A stretch of DNA of 64,000 bases from Escherichia coli (GTDB lineage Bacteria; Pseudomonadota; Gammaproteobacteria; Enterobacterales; Enterobacteriaceae): NCBI RefSeq assembly GCF_050920415.1, contig NZ_CP169309.1, one strand, 5' to 3'. The notes beneath the pieces were generated by a model. That model was not told the DNA's origin. It worked only from the letters and a program-made list of their open reading frames with translations, and did no database searches. How positions within the stretch are numbered: position 1 is the stretch's first letter; each line of letters starts with the position of its first letter. Shown here one piece after another: positions 1,820 to 50,893 of the stretch. The translations under genes were made by a program, and so were the position numbers.

Positions 1820-1996
1820 GTCGGATGCGGCGTAAACGCCTTATCCGACCTACGGTTTGCATCGTTGCAGGCCTGATAAGACGCGGCAAGCGTCGCATCA
1901 GGCAACGGCAGTCGGATGCGGCGCAGGCGCCTTATCCGACCTACGGTTTGTGTCGTGTAGGCCTGATAAGACGCGGCAAGCGTCGCATCAGGCATT
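1820..1996. repeat. REP/BIME cluster (several palindromic REP units)
   Basis: Repeated GCCTGATAAGACGCGGCAAGCGTCGCATCAGGC and CGGATGCGGCGTAAACGCCTTATCCGACCTACGG type palindromes between convergent yraQ and dolP. Confidence 0.85.
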
Positions 1997-25320: not shown

Positions 25321-25697
<377 letters not shown>

Positions 25698-44587: not shown

Positions 44588-44690
44588 CTGCCTGATGCGC
44601 TATGCTTATCAGGCCTACGAGGTTTCTGCAATGTATTGAATTTGCATGTTTTTGTAGGCCGGATAAGGCGTTCACGCCGCATCCGGCATG
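44588..44690. repeat. REP/BIME element
   Basis: CTGATGCGCTATGCTTATCAGGCCTAC and GTAGGCCGGATAAGGCGTTCACGCCGCATCCGGCA. Confidence 0.85.
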
Positions 44691-48293: not shown

Positions 48294-49070
48294 TCATTTG
48301 CTGCCGCTGGTGGCCGTATCAAGATGCACAACGGGATTTTCGGCGAACAGATAGCGGTCGGCATTGAACTCGAAATCGTCGCTGGTTTCGTTAAATAACA
48401 TGATCTTGGTGTTTTCCAGATGCTGCCACATTGCCAGCTTCGCGGCATGGGGATCTTTACGAATTAACGCTTTGAGGATCTGATCGTGGTCATCGCACCA
48501 GTTATCGACAGTACGGGCATCAATATGCTCGTGCAGTTTTTTCCAGTATGGGTTATGGCTACGTTGGGTCCACATTTTTTCAACGATGGCTGCCAGGGCG
48601 GAGTTCTGCGTCGCCAGGGCAACCTGAATATGGAACTGCAAATCCCACTCGGAATCACGGAAGCATTGTTCGCCGCGCGCCTGCTCCTGGATGGCCATCA
48701 GTTTCATGATGTCCTGTTTGGTTACCTGGGTCGCTGCGAACTCGGCAATATTACTTTCGATGAGCTGACGTGCCTGAAGCAGCTCAAACGGACCGTAATT
48801 GGCGAATTCCATATTAGTGTCAGCTGATTGCTGATGGCGCGGCTGGTTGGAAACCACATGAATACCCGAGCCTTTACGCACCTCCACATAGCCTTCAACT
48901 TCAAGCATGATGATGGCTTCACGAACCACGGTGCGACTGACGTTCTTTTCATCGGCAATAAAGCGTTCAGCAGGCAGTTTATCACCCACCAGATAGACGC
49001 CCTGTTCGATGCGCTCTTTCAGATCAGCGGCAAGTTGTTGATACAAACGGCGTGGTTCAGTGATTTCCAT
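48294..49070 (-). CDS. exuR: GntR-family hexuronate regulon repressor ExuR
   Basis: ORF 48294..49085 trimmed to [13 protein letters not shown]...; GntR HTH plus FCD domain. Confidence 0.9.
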
Positions 49071-49199
49071 ATGCGCTCCAGGCATGATACGGCAGACTAT
49101 ATTTGTTATACCACTTTTGCGAGTTTAGCTCTACTCGCAGTGATGAAAAAGCCGCCTGAGAAGGCGGCTTTGAAGGGAAACTAAAACTTACACGAAGCC
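49071..49199 (-). promoter_or_regulatory. exuT-exuR intergenic region (exuR promoter, exuT terminator), copy A
   Basis: 129-bp intergenic region directly upstream of the intact exuR. Confidence 0.6.
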
Positions 49200-49405
49200 T
49201 TAATGTTGCGGTGCGGGATCGTTATGTGATTCCTGCGCCACCTCAATCGCCGGTTTGTGCAACACAGTCCAGATACCAGCGCACCCAGCAGGTCGAATAC
49301 TGCCAGAACTGCGAACAGCGGGCTGAAGCCGATGGTGTTGCACCGACTACCAGTGCAAACAGCGTACTTGCCAGCCATGCGGACATCCCGGTGAAATCGT
49401 TATCT
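49200..49405 (-). pseudogene. Degraded duplicate of the exuT 3' end (frameshifted fragment)
   Basis: Encodes ...TIGFSPLFAVLAVFDLLGAL matching the ExuT C-terminus, then frameshifted; no start codon or upstream part of the gene. Confidence 0.8.
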
Positions 49406-49465
49406 GCGCTCTTTCAGATCAGCGGCAAGTTGTTGATACAAACGGCGTGGTTCAGTGATTTCCAT
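49400..49465 (-). other. Truncated duplicate of the exuR 5' end: 21-codon [24 protein letters not shown] ending at a TAA created at the duplication junction
   Basis: Identical to exuR codons 1-20, then AGA TAA across the junction at 49405/49406. Confidence 0.75.
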
Positions 49466-49594
49466 ATGCGCTCCAGGCATGATACGGCAGACTATATTTG
49501 TTATACCACTTTTGCGAGTTTAGCTCTACTCGCAGTGATGAAAAAGCCGCCTGAGAAGGCGGCTTTGAAGGGAAACTAAAACTTACACGAAGCC
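49466..49594 (-). promoter_or_regulatory. exuT-exuR intergenic region, copy B (second copy of the exuR promoter; functional exuT terminator)
   Basis: Identical to 49071..49199. Confidence 0.6.
49541..49563 (-). terminator. Rho-independent terminator of exuT (identical copy at 49146..49168)
   Basis: GCCGCC-TGAGAA-GGCGGC hairpin followed by T5 on the minus strand. Confidence 0.8.
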
Positions 49595-50893
49595 TTAATG
49601 TTGCGGTGCGGGATCGTTATGTGATTCCTGCGCCACCTCAATCGCCGGTTTGTTCTGCAACACAGTCCAGATAACCAGCGCACCCAGCAGGTCGAATACT
49701 GCCAGAACTGCGAACAGCGGGCTGAAGCCGATGGTGTCAGCCAGTGCACCGACTACCAGTGCAAACAGCGTACTTGCCAGCCATGCGGACATCCCGGTTA
49801 AACCGTTCGCCGTCGCCACTTCGTTACGACCGAACACGTCAGAAGAGAGCGTAATCAGTGCGCCAGACAGGGCCTGGTGAGCAAAACCACCGATACACAG
49901 CAGCATAATCGCGACATACGGGTTAGTGAACAGACCGATCATCCCTGGGCCAATCATCAGCACCGCACCCAGCGTTACTACCATCTTACGGGAAACGATC
50001 AGGTTCACGCCAAACCAACGCTGGAACAGCGGCGGCAGGTAACCACCGAGGATACAACCAAGGTCAGCAAACAGCATCGGCATCCAGGCGAACATCGCGA
50101 TCTCTTTCAGGTTAAAGCCGTAAACTTTAAACATGAACAGCGGGATCCACGCGTTAAAAGTACCCCAGGCAGGTTCAGCCAGGAAACGCGGTAGCGCGAT
50201 ACCCCAGAACTGACGGTTACGCAGGATCTGACCAACGGACATTTTCTTCGCTGTGTCAACCTGGTGCTGGGCTTCCTGACCATTAATAATGTAGTCACGT
50301 TCTTCATCGGTCAGATGTTTCTGGTCGCGCGGATGCTTGTAGAAAATCAGCCATGCCATCGCCCAGATAAAGCTCAGCGCACCGGAGATGATAAATGCCA
50401 TCTGCCAGCTGTGCATCACGATTGCCCATACCACCAGCGGCGGCGCAATCATCGCACCAATCGAAGAACCTACGTTAAAGTAGCCGACCGCGATGGAACG
50501 CTCTTTTGCCGGGAACCATTCGGAACTGGCTTTCAGACCCGCCGGGATCATCGCCGCCTCTGCAGCACCTACCGCACCACGAGCAACCGCCAGGCCACCC
50601 CAGCTACCTGCCAGCGCGGTTGCGCCACAGAACACAGCCCACAGTACAGCAAACATTGCGTAACCGATTTTCGTACCCAGCACATCCAGTACATAACCTG
50701 CTACCGGTTGCATGACCGTATAAGCAGCAGAATAGGCTGCGATGATATAGGAATACTGTTGGGTGGAGATGTTTAACTCTTCCATCAGAGTTGGCGCAGC
50801 TGCCGCCACAGTGTTACGCGTCAGGTAACCAAGCACGGTGCCGAGCGTCACCAGTGCGATCATATACCAACGTAACCCTTTAATTTTACGCAT
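49595..50893 (-). CDS. exuT: Hexuronate (glucuronate/galacturonate) MFS transporter ExuT
   Basis: ORF 49595..51013 trimmed to MRKIKGLRWYMIALV... ATG at 50893. Confidence 0.9.
   Translation of the reverse strand: MRKIKGLRWYMIALVTLGTVLGYLTRNTVAAAAPTLMEELNISTQQYSYIIAAYSAAYTVMQPVAGYVLDVLGTKIGYAMFAVLWAVFCGATALAGSWGGLAVARGAVGAAEAAMIPAGLKASSEWFPAKERSIAVGYFNVGSSIGAMIAPPLVVWAIVMHSWQMAFIISGALSFIWAMAWLIFYKHPRDQKHLTDEERDYIINGQEAQHQVDTAKKMSVGQILRNRQFWGIALPRFLAEPAWGTFNAWIPLFMFKVYGFNLKEIAMFAWMPMLFADLGCILGGYLPPLFQRWFGVNLIVSRKMVVTLGAVLMIGPGMIGLFTNPYVAIMLLCIGGFAHQALSGALITLSSDVFGRNEVATANGLTGMSAWLASTLFALVVGALADTIGFSPLFAVLAVFDLLGALVIWTVLQNKPAIEVAQESHNDPAPQH

What the first reader, a model, noticed from the sequence alone, without database searches (positions are those of the whole stretch)
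49400..49594. Second exuR promoter copy driving a 21-codon truncated exuR ORF
Copy B of the duplicated promoter sits upstream of an exact copy of exuR codons 1-20 with the native RBS, after which the junction supplies AGA TAA, giving a predicted peptide [21 protein letters not shown]. Downstream lies the frameshifted exuT 3' fragment and then the second exuT terminator copy. ExuR is an autoregulated GntR-family repressor (established), so a second promoter/operator copy could titrate ExuR or yield a short transcript antisense to nothing but ending at the copy A terminator.
Basis: inference. Interest (0 to 1): 0.5.

Follow-up and report, generated by a model that had tools for sequence, protein, structure and literature searches.

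The report
Private exuT-exuR tandem duplication, probably artefactual
One E. coli assembly repeats a 395-base stretch (end of the hexuronate transporter gene, its terminator, the exuR promoter and the first 20 exuR codons); both genes stay intact, no other sequence searched has it, and the extra copy is riddled with errors at its inner end, so it looks like an assembly artefact or a very recent neutral mutation, not a new regulatory device.

Summary
Window 49010-49404 and 49405-49810 are a head-to-tail duplication. It gives a second exuT terminator, a second exuR promoter/operator/RBS and exuR codons 1-20 followed by AGA TAA ([21 protein letters not shown]). Full-length exuT and exuR are both intact.

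The duplication is private. The nearest genome, E. coli MFDS1022581, differs by 3 SNPs in 63.6 kb and is single-copy. The junction is absent from 5,426 complete E. coli genomes, the GTDB species representatives, JGI metagenomes and a 15-billion-protein collection.

The extra copy is uneven. 249 nt are perfect. The 146 nt next to the junction carry three deletions (3, 1 and 7 nt) and 4-5 substitutions, where 0.007 changes are expected. That density resembles raw long-read error, not polymerase error or neutral decay. Against this, the parental breakpoints share GTTCG (chance about 1%), which points to a real template switch.

My estimate is about 55% assembly-level artefact, 35% real one-off neutral mutation and under 5% functional. 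If real, promoter B would make a roughly 370-nt ExuR-repressed dead-end RNA. Its peptide holds only 12 of the 64 wHTH positions. Low interest; read mapping or PCR across the junction would settle it.

The parts
49010..49404 (.). Copy A of the tandem duplication (395 nt). This is the extra material relative to the single-copy relative.
49405..49810 (.). Copy B (406 nt), identical to the single-copy parental sequence.
49259..49404 (.). Scrambled tract of copy A. Relative to copy B it has deletions of 3, 1 and 7 nt, substitutions at 49393 and 49397, and altered junction bases.
   Evidence: Expected differences at the background rate are 0.007; Poisson P for 8 or more events is about 1e-22. The substitutions match no E. 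coli exuT allele.
49402..49404 (.). Junction bases 'ATC'. Both parents carry GTTCG here, so a clean junction would read GTTCGA|TGCGCTC.
49400..49465 (-). Truncated exuR ORF: codons 1-20, then Arg, then TAA ([21 protein letters not shown]).
49517..49544 (-). exuR promoter copy B, TTTTCA-16-TAAACT. The -35 hexamer overlaps the terminator T-tract.
   Evidence: The hexamers are as listed for the exuT>exuR spacer in PMC3946193.
49122..49149 (-). exuR promoter copy A, the one in front of full-length exuR.
49496..49511 (-). ExuR-operator-like site B, AAGTGGTATAACAAAT, of the GntR/FadR type TnGTnnnACnA. It lies just downstream of the -10 hexamer.
   Evidence: Binding is inferred, not tested.
49101..49116 (-). 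ExuR-operator-like site A.
49541..49566 (-). exuT intrinsic terminator copy B: a 10-bp hairpin followed by a U-tract.
   Evidence: The simple terminator scan missed it.
49146..49171 (-). exuT terminator copy A, where a transcript from promoter B would be expected to end.
   Evidence: (identical sequence)
49200..49401 (-). exuT' 3' fragment: the last ~213 nt of exuT minus 11 nt, frameshifted.
49595..50893 (-). Intact exuT (432 aa).
   Evidence: identical to the annotated exuT of NZ_CP169399.1
48294..49070 (-). Intact exuR (258 aa; GntR domain residues 9-72, FCD domain residues 96-220).

Best explanation
The extra 395 nt are most likely an assembly-level artefact and not part of the strain's consensus genome. 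Two routes fit. One is an untrimmed start/end overlap of a long-read contig that became internal when the record was rotated. The other is an insertion carried by a single backbone read, possibly a rare molecule with a genuine microhomology-mediated duplication, that polishing could not remove. In either route, reads anchored in unique exuR or exuT sequence would polish the 249 nt nearest those anchors to perfection. The 146 nt next to the unsupported junction would stay at raw-read quality. Whatever its origin, the element is functionally inert. exuT, its terminator, the exuR promoter/operator and exuR are all present in intact native form. Shown here: the anatomy, the privacy of the duplication, the error density and the microhomology. 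Inferred: the sequencing and assembly route.
For: 1. The duplication is private. The junction is absent from 5,426 complete E. coli genomes, GTDB species representatives and JGI metagenomes, the last searched with a degenerate pattern that also covers a clean junction. Junction-spanning ORFs are absent from the 15-billion-protein collection. Ten sampled loci carrying the same UxaA are either single-copy (five) or carry the fimbrial island between exuT and exuR (five).
2. The sister genome MFDS1022581 differs by only 3 SNPs and no indels over 63.6 kb, and is single-copy.
3. The 146-nt tract holds 7-8 events, with 11 nt deleted, none inserted and 4-5 substituted. The adjacent 249 nt hold none. 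The expected number is 0.007 and P is about 1e-22. About 5% events per nt is in the range of raw long-read error, and it is orders of magnitude above the error rates of known polymerases (own knowledge).
4. Events crowd toward the junction: 4-5 substitutions fall in its last 12 nt.
5. The substitutions are not natural exuT polymorphisms and are not templated from anywhere in the window.
6. This class of artefact is documented. [quoted passage not shown] Several assemblers leave start/end overlaps from tens to thousands of bases (PMC6966772).
Against: The two parental breakpoints share the 5-nt microhomology GTTCG in exact register. Only 0.96% of random breakpoint pairs do as well. That is what a polymerase template switch predicts, not a random contig-end join. 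It is compatible with the artefact reading only under the single-read route or as a 1% coincidence. The rest of the window has no indel against the sister genome, so the assembly is otherwise well polished. I do not know the sequencing technology. In an Illumina-only assembly this artefact would be very unlikely. Small tandem duplications do occur at this locus: NR1442 has a clean 36-nt duplication.
Confidence: 0.55

Rival explanations
1. The duplication is real and clonal. It would be a very recent, one-off, neutral event. A nascent strand copying exuR codon ~21 disengaged and re-annealed through CGAAC (minus strand) about 406 nt upstream in exuT, then resumed with low-fidelity, low-processivity synthesis (MMBIR-like or serial template switching). 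That left substitutions and small deletions over the first ~150 nt before accurate replication resumed. Promoter B would then make a ~370-nt ExuR-repressible RNA (about 49512 to 49146, minus strand) that ends at terminator A and encodes a 21-aa remnant peptide. No phenotype would be expected.
For: GTTCG/CGAAC microhomology sits at the breakpoints (P about 0.01). The events start at the junction and thin out in the direction of synthesis. The rest of the window is a clean assembly. Replicative rearrangement mechanisms are reported to be error-prone near breakpoints (PMC4352052, citing Carvalho 2013). Another isolate carries a tandem duplication in the same codons.
Against: Seven to eight events in 146 nt (about 5% per nt) is far above any known polymerase error rate, including Pol IV and Pol V on undamaged DNA (own knowledge). 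The 7-nt deletion has no flanking microhomology. No template for the new bases was found nearby. No second genome shares the duplication.
Confidence: 0.35
2. The element is an evolved or selected regulatory device. The second promoter/operator would titrate ExuR or add a tandem promoter to exuR. Alternatively, the short RNA or 21-aa peptide would modulate the hexuronate regulon.
For: Promoter, operator-like site, RBS and terminator are complete and identical in both copies. The mutated junction places a stop codon right after codon 21.
Against: There is no conservation at all; only this one sequence has it. The peptide holds only 12 of the 64 wHTH positions and no FCD domain. The predicted RNA is no more structured than shuffled sequence (z = +1.04) and has no Rfam match above threshold. 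One extra chromosomal operator on a negatively autoregulated gene should be compensated (inference).
Confidence: 0.04
3. The duplication is old and its exuT' fragment is decaying as a pseudogene remnant. The 249-nt part would be kept identical by gene conversion, and the sister genome would have lost the duplication by recombination between the copies.
For: Tandem duplications collapse readily by homologous recombination, so absence from one relative is not decisive. The lineage has only one close relative in the collection.
Against: About 3% substitutions plus three deletions in 146 nt, against 0 in 249 nt, is highly uneven. If events were spread evenly, P is about 3.5e-4 that all 8 fall in the 146-nt part (computed from the counts). 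That much decay implies an age at which other lineages should share the duplication, yet none of 5,426 genomes does. An unselected 249-nt perfect tandem repeat should not persist that long (inference).
Confidence: 0.03

Closest known systems
Start/end-overlap (circularisation) duplications and unpolished segments in long-read bacterial assemblies (Wick et al., PMC8442456 and PMC6966772)
   Same: Extra bases are duplicated head-to-tail at one point of an otherwise accurate chromosome. They are private to one assembly, are not corrected by polishers, and become internal after rotation. The error-rich sequence sits at the unsupported end.
   Different: Such joins have no reason to fall on a 5-nt microhomology (chance about 1%). 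I cannot see the reads, the assembler used or the original contig ends.
Spontaneous microhomology-mediated tandem duplication (replication slippage or template switching; MMBIR/FoSTeS-type events)
   Same: It is a head-to-tail repeat of a few hundred bp. The breakpoints lie in a short shared sequence (GTTCG). Both flanking genes are preserved. Mutations near the junction are reported for replicative mechanisms.
   Different: The junction is not a clean fusion of the two parents. The lesion density, 7-8 events in 146 nt, is far above what is reported for such events.
36-nt in-frame tandem duplication inside exuR of E. coli NR1442 (NZ_AP040245.1)
   Same: It affects the same few exuR codons (about 9-20), is also private to one genome, and is also head-to-tail.
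   Different: It is clean with no scrambled tract, in-frame and internal to exuR. It does not copy the promoter or the end of exuT.
Native exuT terminator / exuR promoter-operator module of E. coli K-12
   Same: Both copies carry the exact module: the terminator hairpin, TTTTCA-16-TAAACT (PMC3946193) and the operator-like palindrome.
   Different: In every other E. coli genome examined the module is single. In about 35% of genomes a fimbrial island separates the two genes.

Membership tests
Microhomology-mediated tandem duplication | Two copies lie head-to-tail with nothing between them | tested here: met
   49010-49404 is directly followed by 49405-49810.
Microhomology-mediated tandem duplication | A short identical sequence at both parental breakpoints | tested here: met
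   GTTCG is present in both parents in exact register; 0.96% of random breakpoint pairs reach 5 nt or more.
Microhomology-mediated tandem duplication | The junction is a simple fusion of the two parental sequences, and the new copy is identical to its template | tested here: not met
   The junction reads GTTATC|TGCG instead of GTTCGA|TGCG. The adjoining 146 nt carry 3 deletions and 2 further substitutions.
Long-read assembly duplication artefact | Present in one assembly only and absent from near-identical genomes | tested here: met
Long-read assembly duplication artefact | The unsupported segment has raw-read-like error (several %, indel-rich) next to polished sequence | tested here: inconclusive
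   Of 157 parental nt, 11 are deleted and 4-5 substituted, against 0 changes in 249 nt. The profile fits, but the platform is unknown.
Long-read assembly duplication artefact | No reads span the junction, and the position coincides with the original contig ends | not testable with these tools
   Reads and assembly history are not available.
ExuR-autoregulated exuR promoter | Sigma-70 hexamers as mapped for the exuT-exuR spacer | tested here: met
   TTTTCA-16-TAAACT occurs at 49517-49544 and 49122-49149, where 0.01 matches are expected by chance. The hexamers are as listed in PMC3946193.
ExuR-autoregulated exuR promoter | A GntR/FadR-type operator overlapping the start site | tested here: inconclusive
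   AAGTGGTATAACAAAT occurs in both copies. The consensus used comes from memory, the window-wide match count was not above chance (9 found against 5.4 expected), and binding was not tested.
ExuR-autoregulated exuR promoter | Transcription initiates there in vivo and is repressed by ExuR | not testable with these tools
   This needs 5' RACE, dRNA-seq or a reporter in the source strain.
GntR/FadR-family regulator (as applied to the 21-aa product) | [quoted passage not shown] | tested here: not met
   In ExuR the GntR domain is residues 9-72 and the FCD domain 96-220. The peptide keeps residues 1-20 only.
Conserved small protein or leader peptide | Found in related genomes | tested here: not met
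   The exact peptide and the junction ORFs are not in the collection, and the homology search found no junction-bearing protein.

The most novel reading that the evidence does not exclude
The duplication is real and clonal, and the scrambled 146-nt tract is a genuine scar of a single error-prone, multi-step template-switch event in a natural E. coli isolate. It would be an unusually dense example of breakpoint-associated hypermutation. As a by-product it creates a second ExuR-controlled promoter that emits a ~370-nt dead-end RNA carrying a sense fragment of exuT.
Probability: 0.25. Interest if true: 0.3.

Novelty: not a real feature. Interest (0 to 1): 0.07.

Why it matters
It matters little for biology. 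Both hexuronate genes and their control region are intact, so no change in regulation is expected. The practical value is as a quality flag: a private tandem duplication with a raw-read-like tract should be checked against the reads before anyone annotates a second exuR promoter or a 21-aa ORF. If PCR or reads confirm it, it would be a modestly interesting single example of very dense mutation next to a microhomology-mediated duplication junction in a wild isolate.

Tried and rejected
1. I looked for the junction elsewhere. Megablast of junction-spanning queries against 5,426 complete E. coli genomes found only split matches about 403 nt apart, which means single-copy. An exact 28-mer found nothing in GTDB representative genomes. 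A degenerate pattern that allows a clean junction found nothing in JGI metagenomes. An exact look-up of six junction ORFs found nothing. A homology search with the 122-aa junction-spanning ORF returned only unrelated fusions and ordinary antisense ORFs. Ten loci carrying the same UxaA protein were either single-copy or island-bearing.
2. I tested whether the odd bases in the exuT' fragment come from another exuT allele. No genome matches better than 61/63, so I rejected this.
3. I tested whether the new junction bases were copied from a nearby template, as a templated insertion. Within the window there are only chance-level 10-11-mers, so I rejected this.
4. I tested for a structured or known RNA. 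There is only a sub-threshold RNAI-like hit on the terminator region (30 bits against 47) and nothing at gathering score. The predicted transcript folds no better than shuffles.
5. The simple promoter/terminator scan found nothing. The published hexamers and the hairpin had to be located directly.
6. An old decaying duplication is rejected on the uneven distribution of lesions and its absence from all other lineages.
7. The three window-versus-MFDS1022581 SNPs were checked for Dam or Dcm methylation-motif contexts that would hint at nanopore error. None was found, so this was uninformative.
8. The ExuR operator papers (PMC1202228, PMC3147527, 10.1128/JB.00277-11) are not held in the library.

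Full report
WHAT IS THERE

The window is E. coli chromosome. The relevant genes read on the minus strand, in the order uxaC(+) | exuT | exuR | yqiM | yqjA. The annotation comes from the near-identical record NZ_CP169399.1.

The repeat finder shows 49010-49258 and 49405-49653 to be 100% identical over 249 nt at a spacing of 395. Two more blocks follow at spacings 399 and 406. A pairwise alignment resolves this into a head-to-tail duplication: copy B (49405-49810, 406 nt, parental type) and copy A (49010-49404, 395 nt).

Read in the direction of transcription, the order is:
- intact exuT (50893..49595)
- terminator B (49566..49541; 10-bp hairpin plus U-tract)
- promoter B (49544..49517)
- operator-like site B (49511..49496)
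- GGAG ribosome-binding site
- exuR codons 1-20 (49465..49406), then AGA TAA
- a frameshifted exuT' fragment (49401..49200)
- terminator A, promoter A and operator A
- intact exuR (49070..48294)

The peptide is [21 protein letters not shown].

PROMOTER CONTENT

Shimada et al. (PMC3946193) list a constitutive RpoD promoter in the exuT>exuR spacer with hexamers TTTTCA-16-TAAACT. This exact string occurs twice in the window, at 49122-49149 and 49517-49544 on the minus strand, where 0.01 matches are expected by chance. Its -35 hexamer overlaps the terminator's T-tract.

A GntR/FadR-type palindrome, AAGTGGTATAACAAAT, lies immediately downstream of the -10 hexamer in both copies. This fits the known self-repression of exuR (own knowledge). 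However, the consensus I searched with is from memory, and the window-wide match count was not above chance.

Both copies thus contain a complete terminator-promoter-operator-RBS module.

HOW WIDESPREAD

The duplication was found nowhere else. E. coli MFDS1022581 matches the window with 3 substitutions and no indel over 63.6 kb, apart from this 395-nt insertion. The next-closest genomes are about 99% identical.

Junction-spanning queries against 5,426 complete E. coli genomes give only split matches about 403 nt apart, which means single-copy. The junction is also absent from GTDB representative genomes and from JGI metagenomes, the latter searched with a pattern that also allows an unmutated junction. 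ORFs spanning the junction are not in a 15-billion-protein collection, and a homology search recovered none. Ten loci encoding the same UxaA protein are single-copy or carry a fimbrial island instead.

THE KEY ANOMALY

Within copy A, the 249 nt that adjoin the unique exuR body are perfect. The 146 nt that adjoin the junction (49259-49404) differ from copy B in several ways:
- deletions of 3, 1 and 7 nt
- substitutions at 49393 and 49397
- two to three altered bases at the junction itself

At the divergence seen against the sister genome (4.7e-5 per nt), 0.007 differences are expected. The Poisson P for 8 or more events is about 1e-22.

The two substitutions match no exuT allele in 5,404 genomes. 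The new bases have no template elsewhere in the window beyond chance k-mers. All indels are deletions. The 7-nt deletion has no flanking microhomology. Four to five of the substitutions lie within 12 nt of the junction.

About 5% events per nt, or about 10% of bases affected, is the scale of raw long-read error. It is not the scale of any polymerase, and it is not the scale of neutral decay in a lineage 3 SNPs from its sister.

A COUNTER-OBSERVATION

In the single-copy parent, the sequence left of the exuR breakpoint is ...CTGTTCGA. The sequence at the exuT breakpoint is ...CCGTTCGC. Both therefore carry GTTCG in exact register. Only 0.96% of 200,000 random breakpoint pairs in this region reach 5 nt or more. 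This is what a polymerase template switch predicts. It is not what a random join of contig ends predicts.

WEIGHING THE EXPLANATIONS

(a) Assembly-level artefact, about 0.55. Start/end overlaps of circular long-read contigs are documented. They are not repaired by Medaka or Pilon and appear as internal indels after rotation (PMC8442456; PMC6966772). Reads anchored in the unique flanks would polish the nearest ~250 nt and leave the part next to the unsupported junction at raw quality. That is exactly the observed pattern. The microhomology is then either a 1% coincidence, or the insertion came from one backbone read that carried a genuine rare duplication.

(b) Real, clonal, one-off neutral duplication formed by template switching with error-prone resumption, about 0.35. 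This explains the microhomology and the way lesions thin out in the direction of synthesis. It also fits the reported error-proneness of replicative rearrangements. However, the lesion density is orders of magnitude too high for simple misincorporation. If the source is an Illumina-only assembly, this reading becomes the favoured one. I could not determine the platform.

(c) Functional regulatory device, about 0.04. There is no conservation. The peptide keeps only residues 1-20, whereas the wHTH is 9-72 and the FCD domain 96-220. The predicted ~370-nt RNA (about 49512 to 49146) is no more structured than shuffles (z = +1.04) and has no Rfam family.

(d) Old decaying duplication, about 0.03. 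This is contradicted by the uneven lesion distribution and by the absence of the duplication from all other lineages.

CONSEQUENCE IF REAL

Nothing is lost. exuT keeps its 3' end and terminator, and exuR keeps its native promoter, operator and about 330 nt of nearly native upstream context. Promoter B would add an ExuR-repressible transcript that stops at terminator A, plus one extra operator. Because exuR is negatively autoregulated, any titration or read-through should be buffered (inference). I expect no phenotype.

VERDICT

This is either an artefact or an ordinary private structural mutation. Interest is low. Read mapping or one PCR settles it.

Noticed in passing
window 49071-49199 (exuT-exuR spacer); L005 2562-5074; L006, L009-L011 and L015 1-2717: In about 1,900 of 5,422 complete E. 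coli genomes the exuT-end/exuR-start query splits into two places. In E24377A and several other genomes a CS1/Tcf-type chaperone-usher fimbrial operon sits between exuT and exuR. This spacer is therefore a polymorphic insertion site. The window's lineage lacks the island.
   Followed up: partly
L004 (NZ_AP040245.1, E. coli NR1442) about 600-700: NR1442 has a clean 36-nt in-frame tandem duplication inside exuR codons ~9-20. ExuR is annotated there as 270 aa instead of 258. It is an independent small duplication in the same codons that end copy B in the window.
   Followed up: partly
window 49143-49246 and 49538-49641 (-): There is a sub-threshold Rfam RNAI match (30.2 bits against a gathering score of 47, E = 0.008) on the exuT 3' end plus terminator, once per copy. 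It most likely reflects the hairpins only.
   Followed up: no
window 1820-1994: Two ~85-nt REP/BIME-type repeats (92% identical) lie between yraQ and dolP. Rfam naRNA4 (CssrE) scores above gathering at 1870-1941 (-).
   Followed up: partly
window 44611-44651 (-) and 25321-25697 (+): Rfam gives an ES036 (CssrF) sRNA hit just above threshold, and RNase P RNA (rnpB). These are ordinary annotated-type features.
   Followed up: no
proteins P0001 and P0002: Two called proteins from other contigs end with the antisense-exuR-5' ORF (...[20 protein letters not shown]...) but have unrelated N-terminal parts, one of them alpha-mannosidase-like (PF01074). This suggests other rearrangements or chimeric contigs with breakpoints next to the exuR 5' end.
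   Followed up: no
window 716, 53217, 53885: These are the only three substitutions between the window and E. coli MFDS1022581 outside the duplication. Two lie in uxaA, where the window encodes a widespread UxaA protein sequence (listed in 16,170 blocks of the collection).
   Followed up: partly
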